A stretch of DNA of 45,350 nt from a virus (lineage: Duplodnaviria > Heunggongvirae > Uroviricota > Caudoviricetes): IMG/VR virus record IMGVR_UViG_2541047917_000003. The stretch is one strand, 5' to 3'. Both the position numbers and the translations under genes were made by a program. The notes beneath the pieces were generated by a model. The model made no database searches. It was not told the DNA's origin and saw only the letters and a program-made list of their open reading frames with translations. Shown piece after piece: positions 5,887-36,311 of the stretch (position 1 is the stretch's first letter; each line of letters begins with the position of its first letter).

Positions 5887-8462
5887 CGTCCACCTCCGGA
5901 GAACAGGCCACCATCACGCATCTGTGTCTGAATTTCATCACGGGCACCCTTGCGGGCCATGTCATACACCGCCTTCAGAGCAGCCGGACCTATCTGCCCG
6001 TTCGTGCCGTCGTTGTTAATCACCACATGGTTATTCTGCTCAAACGTCCCGGACGCCTGCGACCGGCTGTCTGCCATGCTGCCCGGTGTACCGACATAAC
6101 CGCCGGTGGCATAGCCGCGCATCAGCCGGTAAAGATTCCCCACGCCAATCCGGCTGGTTGCCTCCTTCGTGAAGACAAACTCACCACGGTGAACAATCCC
6201 CGCTGGCTCATATTTGCCGCCGGTTCCCGTAAATCCTCCGGTTGCAAAATGGAATTTCGCCGCAGCGGCCTGAATGGCTGTACCGCCTGACGCGGATGCG
6301 CCGCCACCAACAGCCCCGCCAATGGCGCTGCCGATACTCCCGACAATCCCCACCATTGCCTGCTTAAGCAGAATTTCTGTCATCATGGACAGCACGGAAC
6401 GGGTGAAGCTGCGCCAGTTCTGTTCACTGCCGGTCAGCATCGCCGCCATATTATGCGCAATACCATCAAAGGTCTGCGTGGCTGCACTTTTAACCTGCGA
6501 CATACTGTCCGTGGCGCTCTCTTCCCACTCACTCCAGCCTGACCTGAGGCCTGCCATCCAGCTCCCGCGAAGCTGGTCTTCAGCCGCCCAGGTCTTTTTC
6601 TGCTCTGACATGACGCTATTCAGCGCCAGCGGATTATCGCCATACTGTTCCTTCAGGCGCTGTTCCGTGGCGTCCCGCGCTGCCTGCCGGTCAGTCAGCC
6701 CCCGGTTTTTCGCCTCAATGGCTGCCCGTTTTGCCCGTTGCTGCTGTGCGAATTTATCCGCCTGCTGCGCCAGCGCGTTCAGGTGCTCCTGATACGTGAC
6801 CTTATCGCCAAGTGCAGCCAGCTGGCGTTTGTACTCCAGCGTCTCGTCTTTATGCGCCAGCAGGGATTTCTCCTGTGCGGACAGCTGGCGACGTTGCGCC
6901 GCCTCCTCCAGTACCGCGAACTGACTCTCCGCCTTCCACAAATCCCGGCGCTGCTGGCTGATTTTCTCATTTGCTCCGGCATGCTTCTCCAGCGTCCGGA
7001 GTTCTGCCTGAAGCGTCAGCAGGGCAACATGAGCACTGTCTTCCTGACGATCGCCCGCAGACACCTTCACGCCGGACTGTTTCGGCTTTTTCAGCGTCGC
7101 TTCATAATCCTTTTTCGCCGCCGCCATCAGCGTGTTGTAATCTGCCTGCAGGATTTTCCCGTCCTTCAGTGCCTTGTTCAGTTCTTCCTGACGGGCGGTA
7201 TATTTCTCCAGCGGCGTCTGCAGCCGTTCGTAAGCCTTCTGCGCCTCTTCGGTATATTTCAGCCGTGATGCCTCAGACTCGGCCCAGTCCTTTGCTGCCA
7301 TCTCTCTGGCCTTTTCAAGATCGGCCTGCAACGTGGCGGCTGAAAGTCCAAGTTGCGCATTCGCTCTGTCCTCCCATGCTCCCCGGAGATTGGCAAGAAA
7401 TGCTGAGGTTTTACCGCGCCGGTGGCTCCGGCTCTGATACCACTGCCATTTTTTGTCCGCCTCATCAAAAGCCTTTTCTGCTTTCTCCAGCATTCCCTGG
7501 GCAGTGTCCGGGCGACCAATATCCAGCACCGAATCCCACATGGATTTGAATGCCCGTGCTGTCCTGTCTGCCCAGGTCTCCAGCGTGCCCATGTTCTCTT
7601 TCAGGCGGCGGGTCTGGTCATCAAACCCTTTCGTTGCGGCCTCGTTCGCCGCCTGCAATGCGCCGGCTTCATCTCCGGAACGCTGCAACTGAGCAACATA
7701 CGCAATCTGCTCCGCCGTCACGTTATGGAACTGACGTGCCATCGCTGTCAGTCCCGACGTCGGGTCTGTGGTCAGCTTCCCGAAGGCTTCAGCGACCTTG
7801 TCCACCTCCACGCCGGATGCAGAGGAGAAACGCGCCACACTCTGGCTGATCGCCTCAAACTGCTCACCACCACGCACACCGGCATTCACCAGCGCCGTCA
7901 GTGACTCGCTGGTCTGGTTAAACGTCAGCCCTGCCGCCTGCCCGGCTCTGGACAGGACCAGCATACGATCTGCCGTCAGTCCCGCCTGATTGCCGGAAAG
8001 GACCAGCGTTTTGTTGAAATCGGACAGGGTTGAGTTGCCCTGATACCAGGCATACGCCAGCGCACCGGTCGCCACCGCCAGCGAGGTGGCCCCCACCATC
8101 GGCAGGGTGATCGCACCGGCAAGCCCCCTGAACATGGGGATCATCCCGCCGAAGGAGTCCTTAACCTGACCCCCCTGTTGCAGCAGGATCAGCCACGGGC
8201 TTTGCCCGCCTGCAAGCTGCGTGGCCACGTCGGTGAACTGTGCAGGCAGCATACGCATGGCGGCTTTATACTGTCCGACGGAAATCCCCGCTTTCTGTGC
8301 AGCCAGCGCCTGCCGGTTCATTGACTGTTCAACGACTGCCGCTGTTTTTTTCGCATCACTTTCCGTACCGGAAAAATGACGCCTGACTCTGGCCATCTGC
8401 TCGTCAAATCTGGCCGCATCCAGACTCAAATCAACGACCAGATCGCCTACCGGTTCAGCCAT
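5883..8462 (-). CDS. H: Tail tape measure protein H
   Basis: 859-aa ORF starting MAEPVGDLVVDLSLDAARFDEQ; Gly-rich C-terminal segment; position after G/T. Confidence 0.95.
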   Translation of the reverse strand: MAEPVGDLVVDLSLDAARFDEQMARVRRHFSGTESDAKKTAAVVEQSMNRQALAAQKAGISVGQYKAAMRMLPAQFTDVATQLAGGQSPWLILLQQGGQVKDSFGGMIPMFRGLAGAITLPMVGATSLAVATGALAYAWYQGNSTLSDFNKTLVLSGNQAGLTADRMLVLSRAGQAAGLTFNQTSESLTALVNAGVRGGEQFEAISQSVARFSSASGVEVDKVAEAFGKLTTDPTSGLTAMARQFHNVTAEQIAYVAQLQRSGDEAGALQAANEAATKGFDDQTRRLKENMGTLETWADRTARAFKSMWDSVLDIGRPDTAQGMLEKAEKAFDEADKKWQWYQSRSHRRGKTSAFLANLRGAWEDRANAQLGLSAATLQADLEKAREMAAKDWAESEASRLKYTEEAQKAYERLQTPLEKYTARQEELNKALKDGKILQADYNTLMAAAKKDYEATLKKPKQSGVKVSAGDRQEDSAHVALLTLQAELRTLEKHAGANEKISQQRRDLWKAESQFAVLEEAAQRRQLSAQEKSLLAHKDETLEYKRQLAALGDKVTYQEHLNALAQQADKFAQQQRAKRAAIEAKNRGLTDRQAARDATEQRLKEQYGDNPLALNSVMSEQKKTWAAEDQLRGSWMAGLRSGWSEWEESATDSMSQVKSAATQTFDGIAHNMAAMLTGSEQNWRSFTRSVLSMMTEILLKQAMVGIVGSIGSAIGGAVGGGASASGGTAIQAAAAKFHFATGGFTGTGGKYEPAGIVHRGEFVFTKEATSRIGVGNLYRLMRGYATGGYVGTPGSMADSRSQASGTFEQNNHVVINNDGTNGQIGPAALKAVYDMARKGARDEIQTQMRDGGLFSGGGR

Positions 8463-29631: not shown

Positions 29632-31659
<2,028 letters not shown>

Positions 31660-31691: not shown

Positions 31692-31988
31692 TCAGAACTC
31701 CATCTGGATTTGTTCAGAACGCTCGGTTGCCGCCGGGCGTTTTTTATTGGTGAGTCCATCAAGCGCATACTTAAAAGCCCTGCTAATCGGACTGATGTCT
31801 GATGCCATTCCGAAAGCACACAAGACCGAAGCAATAAATCTCCAATCCGTTCTGCTTATCTTCGATTCATGACAGCCAATCATCTTTGCCAGACCGCGCT
31901 GGGTAATAGCTGACAGATTGATAAGTAAATCTGTTTCTGCGCGATCAACGTCACGCTGTGATAGTTTGCTGTAACTTGTTCTTTCCAT
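31692..31988 (-). CDS. cII: Transcriptional activator cII (chimeric: non-lambda N-terminal part, lambda-type C-terminus)
   Basis: 98-aa ORF; C-terminus ...LTNKKRPAATERSEQIQMEF as in lambda cII; N-terminal HTH region differs. Confidence 0.8.
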   Translation of the reverse strand: MERTSYSKLSQRDVDRAETDLLINLSAITQRGLAKMIGCHESKISRTDWRFIASVLCAFGMASDISPISRAFKYALDGLTNKKRPAATERSEQIQMEF

Positions 31989-32129: not shown

Positions 32130-32345
32130 TTAAGCGGCTTTGTGTTCCGGCGGGAACACGTCATCAAGACTGACTTTTGCGCCTAACTTGTTTAGGCACG
32201 CAACAAGAGCACGGCATGTTTTAAGGTCTGGGAAGCGACGACCAGATTCCCAATGTCCGATAGCTCCCTGTGTGCATCCAACTGCCTTAGCAAGTGTTGT
32301 TTGAGAGATATTCAGTGACTCTCGATATTTTCGTAGGTTGCTCAT
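32130..32345 (-). CDS. cro: Cro-like repressor (HTH, non-lambda specificity)
   Basis: ORF 32130..32438; likely start MSNLRKYRESLNISQTTLAKAVGCTQGAIGHWESGRR (71 aa, SD ggaggg); divergent from cI. Confidence 0.8.
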   Translation of the reverse strand: MSNLRKYRESLNISQTTLAKAVGCTQGAIGHWESGRRFPDLKTCRALVACLNKLGAKVSLDDVFPPEHKAA

Positions 32346-32455: not shown

Positions 32456-33115
32456 ATGAAAATGAAATGGTATGAACTGGCTAGATCCAGAATGAAAGAG
32501 CTCGGCATAACTCAAGAGAAGTTAGCCGAAGAGCTAGGTATGACGCAGGGTGGGATTGGACACTGGTTGCGCGGATCTCGTCATCCATCTCTTAGTGATA
32601 TTGGTGTGGTGTTTAAATACCTTGGTATTGATAACATATCATTCAACCACGACGGGACATTTTCACCTGTTGGCGAATACTCATCGGCCCCAGTTAAAAA
32701 ACAATATGAGTACCCTGTTTTTTCTCATGTTCAGGCTGGGATGTTCTCTCCAGAACTCAGAACCTTTACCAAAGGCGATGCGGAGAGATTGGTAAGCACA
32801 ACCAAAAAAGCCAGTGACTCTGCATTCTGGCTTGAGGTTGAAGGTAACTCAATGACCGCACCAACAGGTTCCAAGCCCAGCTTTCCTGACGGGATGTTAA
32901 TTCTGGTTGACCCTGAGCAGGCTGTTGAGCCAGGCGATTTCTGTATAGCCAGACTTGGTGGTGATGAGTTTACCTTCAAGAAACTGATCAGGGATAGCGG
33001 TCAGATGTTTCTACAGCCACTAAACCCACAATACCCAATGATCCCATGCAATGAGAGTTGTTCCGTTGTGGGGAAAGTTATCGCTAGTCAGTGGCCTGAA
33101 GAGACGTTTGGGTGA
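32456..33115 (+). CDS. cI: CI repressor (chimeric: non-lambda DNA-binding domain, lambda-type C-terminal S24 peptidase domain)
   Basis: ATG at 32456. From ...[28 protein letters not shown] to ...[13 protein letters not shown] matches the recalled lambda CI C-terminal domain; N-terminal HTH domain ([37 protein letters not shown]) differs. Confidence 0.9.
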
Positions 33116-33214
33116 TGTGACTGCATGTAATTTATCAAAAGCGCACATACCCTATGCTAAACAACTTACTGATTAATTTACTGAAAATCATTTATTAAAA
33201 AGTAAGGATTGCCA

Positions 33215-34066
33215 ATGAATTTTTCGGAAGAAAAAAATAAAGATTTCCCCAAAAAAGTACAAACTTCGCTATTTGAAGTAGATTGTAATGACGGATACTC
33301 ATTTGTAGATGTCTTGAAGACATGCGAAAATTTCAAACAAAACTATGACTTTGAGTACTCTAACGACACTCGGGCAAGGATAAAAAGTCTAATAGTTAAC
33401 GATGACCAAATCTTTGCTGGGATAACACTCTATGAGCCCAAAGCTTTGGTCCCGGTAACTCCAAAAGATGGAGACCATAACGATTTGCAGGATGTAGATA
33501 ATTATGATAAATGCCATATATTCTTGCTTGCAACAGAAAGCAATATTCTAACAATTTTTCAACTATCAGGAACTCATCCTTTATCTAAGTTAAAAAAAAT
33601 ATTTAGCCTCATGAATATCAATGTGAATATTTCTGAGAAACTCAACAAAGATGCACTTGGCAAGATAATAAAAGATGGAATACGCTCCATCAGCCTAAGT
33701 ATTGAAACAACAAAAGAAGATCTAGAAGAGGCAAAAGCAACATCATTAGGTATCACTGGAAAAGCTAAAGAAGCTTTGTCAAGATTATTTGAGAAAGAGC
33801 AAGATGATGACAACTCTTTCTATGGGCTTCTGACTCTTGACAAGAGACATAACCCAAAACTCTTAAATATTGCGAACAAAAATCCAAGCCTGATCATTGA
33901 TGAATTATCGGAAGAGTTCTTCATCACAACATCAAAAGGCCAAGCGATCAAAAGCTCTGAAATCAAAACAAAAAAAGATTATTACACAAGAAAGTATGGC
34001 TCTACCACCATAAAAGCGGAACACGCTAAGGAAATTCTTGAGCACTTCAAGGATTTCATACTATAA
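33215..34066 (+). CDS. Hypothetical protein in the rexA position (candidate exclusion-system sensor)
   Basis: 283-aa ORF (ATG 33215, SD aaggat) 100 nt downstream of cI on the same strand; AT-, Lys-, Asn- and Asp-rich; no hydrophobic segments; no family recognised. Confidence 0.6.
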   Translation: MNFSEEKNKDFPKKVQTSLFEVDCNDGYSFVDVLKTCENFKQNYDFEYSNDTRARIKSLIVNDDQIFAGITLYEPKALVPVTPKDGDHNDLQDVDNYDKCHIFLLATESNILTIFQLSGTHPLSKLKKIFSLMNINVNISEKLNKDALGKIIKDGIRSISLSIETTKEDLEEAKATSLGITGKAKEALSRLFEKEQDDDNSFYGLLTLDKRHNPKLLNIANKNPSLIIDELSEEFFITTSKGQAIKSSEIKTKKDYYTRKYGSTTIKAEHAKEILEHFKDFIL

Positions 34067-34103
34067 TGGAGGGTTGTACGTATAACCAAAGGGGGAGGTG
34101 TGA

Positions 34104-34595
34104 ATGAGAGGTAAAGATTGGAGTTATATTTTTTCCATAATCTTTTTTATCTGCCTTTCTCTTGTATTAACTTATTATTTACATGATAAGGTTAGATATA
34201 ACAAAGAGTTGCTTGGACTTGTGGCAAATATATTTTCAATATTAACAGGGTTTCTGTTACTTGTTATAACCACAAGTGGAGACGTAGCATCGTTTACAGA
34301 AGGTAAATCAAGATCAGAAAAGTATGCAACTAAGAGGAAATTCGAAATTCGGTTTTCTCGTTACATGATGCTTTTTTACCTCTATCTTACAGTCTTGTGC
34401 TTAATATTCTTCTACTACATGCTGCTGCCACCAGGAGACACCAGTAAAATCTTAGCAAGCAAGCCGCCTGTGACCAACCTGAGTCTGGCACTTGAGTTTA
34501 TTATATGCTGGCTAAGCATAATTTCATTTGGATGCTCTTTTTTCATACCAATAAAGCTGAAACAGATTTATAACGAAAAACTCAAGCAACAATAA
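34104..34595 (+). CDS. Hypothetical four-TM membrane protein in the rexB position (candidate exclusion-system effector)
   Basis: 163-aa ORF (SD gggggagg) with four hydrophobic segments (IFSIIFFICLSLVLTYYL, LLGLVANIFSILTGFLLLVITT, YMMLFYLYLTVLCLIFFYYMLL, LSLALEFIICWLSIISFGCSFFIPI); size and topology as RexB, no sequence similarity seen. Confidence 0.6.
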   Translation: MRGKDWSYIFSIIFFICLSLVLTYYLHDKVRYNKELLGLVANIFSILTGFLLLVITTSGDVASFTEGKSRSEKYATKRKFEIRFSRYMMLFYLYLTVLCLIFFYYMLLPPGDTSKILASKPPVTNLSLALEFIICWLSIISFGCSFFIPIKLKQIYNEKLKQQ

Positions 34596-34620
34596 CCCGG
34601 TCTCAGCGCCGGGTTTTCTT
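34596..34620 (+). terminator. Intrinsic terminator after the rex-position cassette
   Basis: CCCGGTCTCAGCGCCGGG hairpin directly after the stop codon, followed by TTTTCTTT. Confidence 0.75.
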
Positions 34621-34759
34621 TGCCTCACGATCGCCCCACCTAAAAACACATAACCAATTGTATTTATTGAAAAATAAATAGATGCAACCCACTAAACCAC
34701 GCAATTCTGATCTCTCCTTACATCGCCGAGGCAATACATCCACGCTAAAAAACAACACT

Positions 34760-34929: not shown

Positions 34930-35027
34930 GATCACCCAACCACATAAGCTGTGGGATGCAATGCCGAAGCAACCGTCTCAGGAGGAGCTTCGAGATTGCA
35001 TCGCCAAAGTTTATTCGGGAGGAATCC

Positions 35028-35300
35028 ATGTCCAGAAAAACAGAATTTAAAGGCACCGCAGCTTCTCGCCGTAGAGCTCGTCGCGCAAATCTGCAAAGTC
35101 AGGAGGCGATCAGCTCCGACAAGCTACACAGGCCAACCCCTTCACGAGTGGTCTTGCAATGCAAGCGCAAACCAGCAATGAGAGCAGAAGTGATAACTCT
35201 GACAACGTTGACCAGAAAATATGAAGGTTCAACTTGTCTTCCGAACGTAGCCATTTACGCGGCAGGCTACAGGAAATCAAAACAACTGACGGCGAGATGA
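35028..35300 (+). CDS. N: N-like transcription antiterminator (non-lambda specificity)
   Basis: ORF track 34956..35300; likely start MSRKTEFKGTAASRRRARRANLQ (SD ggagg). Arginine-rich motif near the N-terminus; first pL gene downstream of nutL. Confidence 0.65.
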   Translation: MSRKTEFKGTAASRRRARRANLQSQEAISSDKLHRPTPSRVVLQCKRKPAMRAEVITLTTLTRKYEGSTCLPNVAIYAAGYRKSKQLTAR

Positions 35301-35315
35301 TAAATCATTTGCTAA

Positions 35316-35897
35316 TTACTTGTTTTTGCCATGCTTATCCTGAGCGATAAGTTCATCCATAAGACTGTCTTTCTTCCCAGCAAACCTAATGTAGCACTCA
35401 TTTCTATAGCGTTCCGGGATAACAAAACGGTCGATTTCAGGATATCCAGTAGCAGAAGGTATCCGAATAAGAAGCCCTTTTTCGAGCAATGAGATTGCTT
35501 CAGGGCTTCCCTTTTCTGTCTTTAGCTGGTTATTCGCGGCTACAGCGAATGCCAAATACGCTCTTTCTCCAAGAGTTAACGAATCAAACAAATCTTGCAC
35601 ATATTTTTCTTCTTTAGATTTGCGCTTCTGAGCAGCGGATACCTCAATTCTTTCAGTCACAGCGTGATAAGCGGAATTAACAACACCGTTAAGCACATAG
35701 CTAACGCAGAACAACAGGATGTAATACATCCAATAATGAGGAAGGATTTCTGGATTATGCAGGTTTATCCATTCTTTTACGCTTACCGGCATAACAATAA
35801 TCAATATGATCAGGATGATTAGCATATGAATCAACTGTTTAAGTGTCATTCCTTGCAGGAAAAAATGCATTAGTTCCTGCCACCATGAGTTGTTCAT
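35316..35897 (-). CDS. sieB: Superinfection exclusion protein SieB-like (membrane protein)
   Basis: 193-aa ORF convergent with N; N-terminal TM segments then soluble C-terminal domain; position between N and ral as lambda sieB. Family assignment from memory. Confidence 0.55.
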   Translation of the reverse strand: MNNSWWQELMHFFLQGMTLKQLIHMLIILIILIIVMPVSVKEWINLHNPEILPHYWMYYILLFCVSYVLNGVVNSAYHAVTERIEVSAAQKRKSKEEKYVQDLFDSLTLGERAYLAFAVAANNQLKTEKGSPEAISLLEKGLLIRIPSATGYPEIDRFVIPERYRNECYIRFAGKKDSLMDELIAQDKHGKNK

Positions 35898-36110: not shown

Positions 36111-36311
36111 ATGACTACGACTATTGATAAAAATCAATGGTGTGGACAATTCAAGCGATGCAATGGATGCAAGCTGCAATCGGAATGCATGGTTAAGCCT
36201 GAAGAAATGTTTCCTGTAATGGAAGATGGGAAATATGTCGATAAATGGGCAATACGAACGACGGCAATGATTGCCAGAGAACTTGGTAAACAGAACAACA
36301 AAGCTGCCTGA
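36111..36311 (+). CDS. ral: Restriction alleviation protein Ral
   Basis: 66-aa ORF MTTTIDKNQWCGQFKRCNGCKLQSECMVKPEEMF...; size and position as lambda Ral. Confidence 0.7.
   Translation: MTTTIDKNQWCGQFKRCNGCKLQSECMVKPEEMFPVMEDGKYVDKWAIRTTAMIARELGKQNNKAA

What the first reader, a model, noticed from the sequence alone, without database searches (positions are those of the whole stretch)
33215..34620. Unrecognised two-gene cassette in the rexA-rexB slot of the immunity region: candidate lysogen-expressed exclusion / abortive-infection module
Seen in sequence: directly downstream of cI on the same strand lie a 283-aa ORF (33215-34066) and a 163-aa ORF (34104-34595), each with a good Shine-Dalgarno, closed by a hairpin terminator (34596-34620). 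Both are conspicuously AT-rich and Lys/Asn/Ile-rich compared with the flanking phage genes. The first has no hydrophobic segment; the second has four clear transmembrane-length hydrophobic segments. Established knowledge: in lambda this position holds rexA-rexB, co-transcribed with cI from pRM, where RexB is a four-TM membrane protein and RexA a ~279-aa cytoplasmic sensor; the slot is a known hotspot for prophage defence cargo. Inference: I see no sequence similarity to RexA/RexB or to any family I can name, so this is an architectural analogue of Rex (soluble sensor plus small polytopic effector expressed in the lysogen) that may be an undescribed exclusion system.
Basis: partly seen in the sequence, partly recalled or inferred. 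Interest (0 to 1): 0.82.

Follow-up and report, generated by a model that had tools for sequence, protein, structure and literature searches.

The report
Hidden Rex-like phage exclusion gene pair
Two unnamed genes that sit exactly where phage lambda keeps its rexA-rexB exclusion genes appear to be a very distant, sequence-unrecognisable version of that same system, so this is probably a new family of a known kind of prophage defence rather than a new kind.

Summary
A 283-aa soluble ORF (33215-34066) and a 163-aa four-TM ORF (34104-34595) follow cI on the same strand. They end at a hairpin terminator that is lambda's own tIMM. The variable block (33117-34592) runs exactly from the cI stop codon to the ORF2 stop codon, and related phages carry other cargo between the same flanks.

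The pair is strictly syntenic in all 28 distinct related loci outside the window. The identities of the two proteins co-vary (r = 0.98). The cassette moves between prophage cargo slots in Enterobacterales and Pasteurellaceae and is always more AT-rich than its flanks.

Best reading: a new sequence family of RexAB-type abortive-infection modules, a new member of a known kind. Function is untested. Interest about 0.5.

The parts
32456..33115 (+). cI-type repressor (HTH + S24 peptidase). This is the upstream gene of the presumed operon and the left boundary of the cargo slot.
   Evidence: phrog_4 transcriptional repressor, E 1e-60. Annotated cI / LexA family in PhiR11_1 and RefSeq genomes. Homology with phages carrying other cargo stops at 33116-33117.
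33117..34592 (+). Variable cargo block: the 99-nt leader (33116-33214), ORF1, a 37-nt spacer and ORF2. It is 34.8% GC.
   Evidence: blastn of the window against PhiR57_1, E. coli 2009C-3133 and lambda. The flanks are 90-99.8% identical and the block is absent or replaced. GC values.
33215..34066 (+). ORF1, 283 aa, soluble, pI 5.6. A RexA-fold (RdgC-like) protein and candidate sensor/activator. Shine-Dalgarno TAAGGA at 33203-33208.
34038..34067 (+). Promoter-like site (TTGAGC-18-TATAAT, 10 of 12) across the end of ORF1. It is a candidate ORF2-only promoter, in the position of lambda pLIT. Unverified.
   Evidence: Consensus scan (11 sites found against 7.0 expected, so weak). A TATAAT/TATAGT-like motif recurs over the ORF1 stop codon in several homologous cassettes, but it overlaps coding sequence.
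34104..34595 (+). ORF2, 163 aa, pI 9.4, four TM helices. Predicted N-in/C-in with a basic central cytoplasmic loop (residues 59-85). Candidate RexB-like membrane effector. Shine-Dalgarno GGAGG at 34094-34098.
   Evidence: Hydropathy and loop charges. AF2 model pLDDT 75.8, helices 4-30, 34-62, 70-107, 125-145 and 147-162. Invariant motif N..L...ANIFS.LTGFLLLVI in TM2 and F..RF..Y at the end of the loop.
34594..34622 (+). Intrinsic terminator, homologous to lambda tIMM. Right boundary of the slot.
   Evidence: Terminator scan, RNA fold, alignment to lambda.

Best explanation
The cassette is a RexAB-type two-component abortive-infection (exclusion) module that belongs to a previously unrecognised sequence family.

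Proposed mechanism:
1. In the lysogen it is transcribed with cI from the maintenance promoter and terminated at tIMM. This is inferred: there is no + strand terminator between cI and ORF1.
2. ORF1 is a cytoplasmic RexA-fold protein. By analogy it is a dimer that binds DNA or nucleoprotein, and it senses a feature of an infecting phage.
3. ORF1 then engages ORF2, a four-TM inner-membrane protein, probably through ORF2's conserved basic cytoplasmic loop.
4. ORF2 oligomerises or opens and dissipates membrane potential. Growth stops and the infection is aborted.

Shown here: the anatomy, the slot, the RexA-like fold of ORF1, the four-TM topology of ORF2, and strict co-inheritance and mobility as a unit. 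Inferred: expression, the ORF1-ORF2 interaction, the trigger, the membrane effect and the exclusion phenotype.
For: Slot:
- The block is bounded by the cI stop codon and by lambda's tIMM terminator, at the position of the rexB stop codon.
- The surrounding order is Q-nin-P-O-cII-cro-cI-[pair]-N-sieB-ral-gam-bet, as in lambda.

Fold:
- The following hits (CENP-N, RdgC, CHL4, the C. glutamicum NDP-sugar epimerase 3oh8, IML3) largely coincide with the structural neighbours published for RexA itself (PMC11077077).
- The order of secondary-structure elements gives an N-terminal sheet domain (1-132), an inserted 4-strand/4-5-helix domain (137-239) and a C-terminal return (244-282). This matches RexA's split globular domain (1-139 and 248-279) plus dimerisation domain (143-234).

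ORF2 resembles RexB in gross features: 163 vs 144 aa, four TM segments, pI 9.4 vs 9.3, and basic N-terminus and central loop.

Unit behaviour:
- An ORF1 homologue lies immediately upstream of an ORF2 homologue in all 28 distinct related loci examined outside the window (32 fetched records, gaps of -11 to 38 nt in the intact ones).
- Pairwise identities of the two proteins co-vary, r = 0.98 over 17 distinct pairs.

Mobility typical of defence cargo:
- After an S24 repressor in four unrelated prophage backgrounds: E. coli, Salmonella-like L014, Budvicia L002 and Mannheimia L037.
- Antisense between Q and the lysis genes in Pantoea-type prophages (L007, L020, L022).
- In a tail-gene region (L017) and next to an integrase (Providencia L034). 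Also in a Haemophilus contig between metabolic genes, with no phage genes in the 12.9 kb fetched (L035).
- GC is 6-22 points below the flanks in every host.
Against: - No sequence-level relationship to RexA or RexB could be shown. This covers BLASTP, hhalign of family profiles (prob <1% for ORF1 vs RexA; prob 2.5% for ORF2 vs RexB), the Pfam RexA/RexB models and the PADLOC RexA/RexB models.
- Foldseek against the PDB did not recover RexA. Its best hit was Iml3 at E 4e-3, which does belong to the same fold group.
- The ORF2 model has no significant structural match, so its kinship to RexB rests on size and topology only.
- ORF1 is acidic (pI 5.6) whereas RexA is basic (pI 8.6). This sits less easily with non-specific DNA binding.
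- The structure is a prediction from a 14-sequence alignment.
- No expression or phenotype data exist.
Confidence: 0.6

Rival explanations
1. It is a Rex-fold pair with reversed logic, as in mycobacteriophage Butters gp30/gp31. The soluble ORF1 would be the toxic or antiviral effector, acting on DNA, replication or recombination. The membrane protein ORF2 would only sequester or restrain it until infection.
For: Among described Rex-like systems one already works this way (PMC12894663 discussion). The nearest folds to ORF1 are DNA-handling proteins such as RexA and RdgC. ORF2 has no detectable similarity to RexB.
Against: Four of the five described Rex-like systems use the membrane protein as effector. 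ORF2 is the more conserved partner at long range (about 42% vs 25% identity) and has an invariant intramembrane motif, which suggests an active membrane function.
Confidence: 0.15
2. Its main role is not defence but tuning of the phage's own lysis-lysogeny switch, like the second function reported for lambda RexA/RexB (stabilising the lytic state after induction).
For: Lambda RexA biases the bistable switch independently of RexB (PMC11077077 abstract). In four prophage lineages the pair lies directly after the repressor gene.
Against: The same cassette also occurs far from any repressor: antisense between Q and the lysis genes, in a tail-gene region, next to an integrase in a small element, and in a Haemophilus contig with no phage genes nearby. 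Its function therefore cannot depend on a particular cI/operator set. Both genes are always kept together.
Confidence: 0.1
3. It is an unrelated two-gene cargo, such as another membrane-acting superinfection-exclusion or toxin-type module, whose first protein only converges on an RdgC/RexA-like alpha/beta fold. The Rex resemblance would be positional coincidence.
Confidence: 0.15

Closest known systems
Lambda RexA/RexB (Pfam PF15969/PF15968; PADLOC RexA/RexB; PDB 8TWQ)
   Same: Identical genomic slot and the same terminator. Same gene order, soluble then membrane. Similar sizes (283/163 vs 279/144 aa). The ORF1 model's best PDB match is RexA. ORF2 has four TM segments, a basic pI and a basic central loop like RexB.
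   Different: No detectable sequence similarity by BLASTP, HMM or profile-profile comparison. ORF1 is acidic rather than basic. The cassette is 35% GC, against about 40-42% for lambda rexAB. The family also occurs outside immunity regions.
P. putida prophage P1 RexABpp (PP_5643/PP_5644), PMC12894663
   Different: RexApp is still detected by HHpred against RexA (98% probability), whereas ORF1 is not detected by hhalign here. RexABpp is experimentally validated and this pair is not. No sequence comparison with PP_5643 was possible with these tools.
Actinobacteriophage Rex-like systems: Sbash gp30/31, CarolAnn gp44/43, Butters gp30/31
   Same: A soluble protein plus a four-TM protein, expressed from the prophage (CarolAnn: co-transcribed with the repressor), with only marginal sequence links to RexA. 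Sbash gp31 is inactivated by substitutions in its central cytoplasmic loop, which is the region invariant in the ORF2 family.
   Different: Different hosts and sizes (gp44 is 370 aa). No similarity to ORF1/ORF2 by hhalign. The DUF4747 link reported for those proteins could not be reproduced for the ORF1 family.
RdgC (PDB 2OWL) and the RdgC-like genes noted just left of cI in some lambdoid phages (PMC12315714)
   Different: RexA scores higher than RdgC. No member of the ORF1 family matches any Pfam model above threshold, including RdgC. ORF1 always comes with a four-TM partner.

Membership tests
RexAB-type (Rex-like) exclusion systems | Two adjacent co-oriented genes: a soluble protein of about 280-370 aa followed by a four-TM membrane protein of about 140-180 aa | tested here: met
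   ORFs and hydropathy, AF2 helices, synteny in all related loci.
RexAB-type (Rex-like) exclusion systems | The first protein has the RexA fold: a split globular beta-sheet domain interrupted by a 4-strand/4-helix dimerisation domain (RdgC-like) | tested here: met
RexAB-type (Rex-like) exclusion systems | Carried by a temperate phage or prophage, typically downstream of the immunity repressor | tested here: met
   The window and PhiR11_1. The same position in Budvicia, Salmonella-like and Mannheimia prophages.
RexAB-type (Rex-like) exclusion systems | Expression in the lysogen, co-transcribed with the repressor or from its own promoter | not testable with these tools
   Only indirect evidence: no + strand terminator-like site between cI and ORF1, and the tIMM terminator after ORF2.
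RexAB-type (Rex-like) exclusion systems | Exclusion of superinfecting phage through growth arrest caused by the membrane protein (depolarisation or permeabilisation), triggered by the soluble protein | not testable with these tools
   Needs plaque assays, membrane-potential dyes and ORF1 overexpression with and without ORF2.
RexA family proper (Pfam PF15969 / PADLOC PDLC02339) | Sequence match to the RexA profile | tested here: not met
   No hit for ORF1 or any of the 24 family members at E <= 10. PADLOC gave no hit, while lambda RexA scores 9e-110. hhalign of family vs family gave prob <1%.
RexB family proper (Pfam PF15968 / PADLOC PDLC02340) | Sequence match to the RexB profile | tested here: not met
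   RexB was not among the 25 most frequently matched of the 63 Pfam families hit by the 25 family members, nor among the hits to ORF2 itself. PADLOC gave none. hhalign against an 18-sequence RexB alignment gave prob 2.5%, E 0.018, 30 columns at the loop-1/TM2 position only.
DUF4747 (the domain reported to link RexA, Sbash gp30 and CarolAnn gp44) | Match to the DUF4747 profile | tested here: inconclusive
   UniRef names one distant Haemophilus parainfluenzae member a 'DUF4747 family protein'. hmmscan of that protein and its relatives gave no DUF4747 hit, and lambda RexA itself does not hit it in this Pfam copy.
Kiwa (KwaA four-TM + KwaB DUF4868) | KwaA/KwaB profile matches, with the membrane gene first | tested here: not met
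   No PADLOC or Pfam hit. Here the soluble gene comes first.
RdgC (Pfam PF04381) | Sequence match to the RdgC profile, or RdgC as best structural neighbour | tested here: not met

The most novel reading that the evidence does not exclude
Rex may not be a lambda curiosity. It may be an old, sequence-hyperdivergent superfamily of mobile 'RexA-fold sensor + four-TM effector' cassettes. This pair would then be a separate lineage with its own trigger specificity that current defence finders miss entirely. It hops between at least four kinds of prophage or satellite cargo slot in Enterobacterales and Pasteurellaceae. It also sits in a plaque-forming E. coli K-12 phage (PhiR11_1). A second, genetically tractable coliphage Rex system would allow the 70-year-old question of what RexA senses and how RexB is opened to be attacked by comparison.
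Probability: 0.5. Interest if true: 0.6.

Novelty: new member of a known kind. Interest (0 to 1): 0.5.

Why it matters
If it is confirmed, three things follow.

1. It would be the sixth described Rex-like system and the second in a lambda-type coliphage that grows on E. coli K-12. Chimeras and side-by-side genetics with lambda Rex (swapping sensors, effectors and loops) would then be feasible. The trigger and gating mechanism of Rex are still unknown.

2. It shows that profile-based defence annotation (PADLOC, Pfam, NCBIfam) misses whole families of Rex-type systems that only fold comparison reveals. Prophage defence content is therefore under-counted.

3. The cI-to-tIMM interval has junctions exact to the stop codon. 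It is a clean, conserved-flank hotspot that could be mined systematically for further cargo. More than 1,000 of 5,426 complete E. coli genomes carry the tIMM flank, but only 7 carry this cassette.

Tried and rejected
Searches that gave nothing useful:
- Sequence searches of both proteins against Pfam, NCBIfam and PADLOC gave nothing. PHROGs gave only an unnamed family.
- BLASTP against lambda RexA/RexB gave nothing.
- hhalign of the ORF1 family against RexA as a single sequence, a 20-sequence profile and a 40-sequence profile that includes 23-30%-identical RexA relatives gave prob <1% in each case.
- hhalign of the ORF2 family against 18 RexB relatives was not significant.
- An HMM of the ORF1 family against all PDB sequences gave only a spurious CD2 hit.
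- Foldseek of the ORF1 model against the PDB gave no hit at E <= 1e-3 and did not list RexA.
- Foldseek of the ORF2 model against BFVD gave no significant match.
- All 25 ORF2-family members hit DUF4064 weakly and below threshold. I treated this as TM-composition noise.

Tools or papers that were unavailable:
- afdb50 was not available.
With A1 on genome contigs it returned only one doubtful Phycisphaerae fragment, which I did not use.
- The 'DUF4747' label could not be reproduced.
- The paper that probably describes the PhiR phages (Brenes & Laub, Cell Host Microbe 2025) is not held, so I could not check whether it tested these genes.
- No held paper or DefensePredictor supplement mentions WP_021566049 or WP_019842864.

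Readings considered and rejected:
- Kiwa: no profile hit and the opposite gene order.
- An RdgC orthologue: lower Z than RexA, no Pfam hit, and an obligatory TM partner.
- Chance ORFs in AT-rich DNA: rejected because of the conservation and co-variation.

Full report
**1. What is in the sequence**

On the + strand the window carries a lambda-type immunity region in reversed orientation. The order is cII-like (31692-31988, -), cro-like (32133-32345, -) and a LexA/S24-type cI (32456-33115, +). Next come the two ORFs of the finding, then an N-like antiterminator (34956-35300, +), sieB (35316-35897, -), ral, ea10, gam and bet. The annotated phage PhiR11_1 is 99.7% identical over the cassette. It shows the same order, Q-nin-P-O-cII-cro-cI-[hyp][hyp]-N-sieB-ral-ea10-gam-bet-exo, with both genes labelled 'hypothetical protein'.

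ORF1 (33215-34066, 283 aa) and ORF2 (34104-34595, 163 aa) each have a good ribosome-binding site: TAAGGA 6 nt before the ORF1 ATG and GGAGG 5 nt before the ORF2 ATG. No terminator-like site lies on the + strand between cI and ORF1 or between the two ORFs. A strong hairpin plus T-run follows ORF2 at 34594-34622. The block is 34.8% GC, against 50.6% for the window and 46-50% for cI and N. ORF1 has no hydrophobic segment and ORF2 has four.

**2. The slot is exactly the rex slot, and it is a hotspot**

The last bases of ORF2, the terminator and about 120 nt beyond it are 90-93% identical to lambda 35708-35833. That stretch covers the end of rexB, tIMM and the region leading to oL.

I compared the window with two relatives that have the same cI: phage PhiR57_1 and E. 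coli 2009C-3133. Homology runs up to 33116-33117, the cI stop codon, and resumes at 34592-34594, the ORF2 stop codon and the foot of the terminator. Between those flanks PhiR57_1 has two unrelated genes (185 and 249 aa) and 2009C-3133 has a single 126-aa gene.

The tIMM flank is present in 1,026 of 5,426 complete E. coli genomes. The cassette itself is in only 7, plus phages 2G7b and PhiR11_1. The cassette is thus one rare allele of a recombination-delimited cargo slot.

**3. Sequence searches say nothing**

Pfam, NCBIfam and PADLOC give no hit for either protein. PHROGs places ORF1 in an unnamed family. As a control, the PADLOC and Pfam RexA/RexB models detect the lambda proteins at E 1e-61 to 1e-110 but detect none of ten members of the new families.

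BLASTP against lambda RexA and RexB finds nothing. Profile-profile comparison also fails:
- The ORF1 family (24 sequences) against RexA profiles of 20 and 40 sequences gives probability below 1%.
- The ORF2 family (31 sequences) against 18 RexB relatives gives 2.5%.

This negative has limited weight. The same test cannot link the RexA family to CarolAnn gp44, an experimentally validated Rex-like protein.

**4. The fold of ORF1 is that of RexA**

The element order in the model gives three parts:
- an N-terminal sheet domain, residues 1-132;
- an inserted domain of four strands and four to five helices, residues 137-239;
- a C-terminal strand pair and long helix, residues 244-282.

This mirrors RexA's split globular domain (1-139 and 248-279) around the dimerisation domain (143-234).

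I conclude that ORF1 is a RexA-fold protein and probably a remote homologue.

**5. ORF2**

The model (pLDDT 75.8) shows four long helices that match the hydrophobic segments, plus a short amphipathic C-terminal helix. By the positive-inside rule the protein is N-in/C-in. The cytoplasmic loop between TM2 and TM3 (residues 59-85) carries 7 K/R. RexB has the same length class, a pI of 9.3 against 9.4 for ORF2, four hydrophobic segments and a basic TM2-TM3 loop.

The family alignment shows two invariant features:
- an intramembrane motif, N..L...ANIFS.LTGFLLLVI, in TM2;
- an invariant F..RF..Y at the end of the cytoplasmic loop.

[quoted passage not shown] No structural match was found for ORF2. 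Homology to RexB is therefore unproven, and likeness is limited to size, charge and topology.

**6. The pair is a unit and it moves**

Both families are small. A full HMM scan of 1.84 billion representative proteins finds 18 ORF1 relatives. Every locus recovered through either gene has the two genes adjacent and in the same order: 28 distinct loci outside the window (32 fetched records). The gaps are -11 to 38 nt in the intact ones.

This includes distant members from Providencia, Haemophilus, Mannheimia and a high-GC metagenome contig. In the Mannheimia locus the partner is present but was not called by the annotator. In one viral contig (L014) ORF1 is truncated. Pairwise identities of the two proteins co-vary, with Pearson r = 0.98 over 17 distinct pairs.

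The cassette occupies different cargo positions:
- Directly after an S24 repressor in four unrelated prophage backgrounds: E. coli, L014, Budvicia L002 and Mannheimia L037.
- Antisense between the Q antiterminator and the holin/lysis genes in Pantoea-type prophages (L007-L009, L020, L022).
- Among tail genes (L017).
- In Morganella, about 4 kb from a type I-F Cas operon (L004-L006).
- Beside an integrase in Providencia (L034).
- In a Haemophilus contig between metabolic genes, with no phage genes in the 12.9 kb fetched (L035).

Everywhere its GC content is 6-22 points below its flanks. This is the behaviour of a self-contained accessory module. It argues against a function tied to one phage's repressor or operators.

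**7. Mechanism**

The best-supported reading (confidence about 0.6) is a RexAB-type abortive-infection module. Its steps would be:
1. The pair is expressed with cI in the lysogen.
2. ORF1 acts as sensor/activator.
3. ORF2 acts as the membrane effector, and its activation collapses membrane potential and arrests growth.

Only the anatomy, fold, topology, co-inheritance and mobility are shown here. Expression, interaction, trigger and phenotype are inferred from lambda Rex, Sbash, CarolAnn and P. putida RexABpp.

The rivals are:
- a Butters-type inversion of roles (0.15);
- a primary role in the lysis-lysogeny switch (0.10), weakened by the repressor-independent locations;
- convergence of fold with an unrelated function (0.15).

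A promoter-like site over the end of ORF1 (34038-34067) lies where lambda has pLIT, but it is only a consensus match.

**8. Novelty and score**

Neither protein accession (WP_021566049, WP_019842864) appears in the searchable literature. All records annotate both proteins as hypothetical. The paper that probably introduced the PhiR phages could not be read, so prior experimental testing cannot be excluded.

As of January 2026 only five Rex-like systems had been described (PMC12894663). This would be a further sequence family of that known kind, invisible to current defence finders and located in the canonical lambda slot of a K-12-infecting phage. That is useful and testable but not categorically new. 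I rate it 'new member of a known kind', with interest 0.5 rather than the 0.82 first proposed.

Noticed in passing
window 29638-31585: An IS21-family element (istA 29718-30740, istB 30737-31519, + strand) is inserted relative to phage PhiR11_1. The flanks align to PhiR11_1 with an 11-bp overlap, inside the 5' part of replication gene O. The prophage in this window is therefore probably replication-defective, while its immunity region and cassette are intact.
   Followed up: partly
L032 2191-3497 (phage PhiR57_1) and L033 2942-3322 (E. coli 2009C-3133): The same cI-to-tIMM slot holds other unnamed cargo. PhiR57_1 has two overlapping genes of 185 and 249 aa, and 2009C-3133 has a single 126-aa gene. 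These are further uncharacterised candidates for lysogen-expressed functions. The tIMM flank occurs in 1,026 of 5,426 complete E. coli genomes.
   Followed up: no
window 32705-33116: The C-terminal (S24 peptidase) half of this cI is 94.7% identical in DNA to lambda cI, while the N-terminal DNA-binding half has no such match. This is a mosaic repressor with a different immunity specificity.
   Followed up: no
window 35316-35897 (- strand) and 36111-36311: A SieB-type superinfection-exclusion gene (phrog_1301, E 2e-123) and ral lie just beyond N. The region between cI and gam therefore stacks several host-protection or anti-restriction functions.
   Followed up: no
L037 about 6890-7390 (Mannheimia varigena prophage): The ORF2 homologue downstream of the ORF1-like gene is present in frame but was not called. 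The record annotates a 73-aa gene on the opposite strand instead, and the start codon may be non-canonical.
   Followed up: partly
L014 4195-5568 (IMG/VR contig, Salmonella-like): In this copy ORF1 is truncated to 203 aa, with a 276-nt gap before an intact ORF2. This is a possible decaying copy or a sequencing frameshift.
   Followed up: no
L004-L006 (Morganella morganii): The cassette lies in an element with a P4-type primase (Zn-ribbon/Toprim/DUF927), about 4 kb from a type I-F Csy1-4 operon. This is a defence-island-like neighbourhood.
   Followed up: no
window 34060-34067 and the equivalent position in L002, L015, L017, L020, L021, L034: A TATAAT/TATAGT-like hexamer recurs over the ORF1 stop codon in divergent cassettes. 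It may be a conserved internal promoter for ORF2, like lambda pLIT, or only a consequence of the C-terminal I/L codons plus TAA.
   Followed up: partly
cluster of P0053 (Haemophilus): UniRef names one H. parainfluenzae member of the wider ORF1 family a 'DUF4747 family protein'. DUF4747 is the domain that earlier papers used to link RexA with Sbash gp30 and CarolAnn gp44. hmmscan could not reproduce the label.
   Followed up: partly
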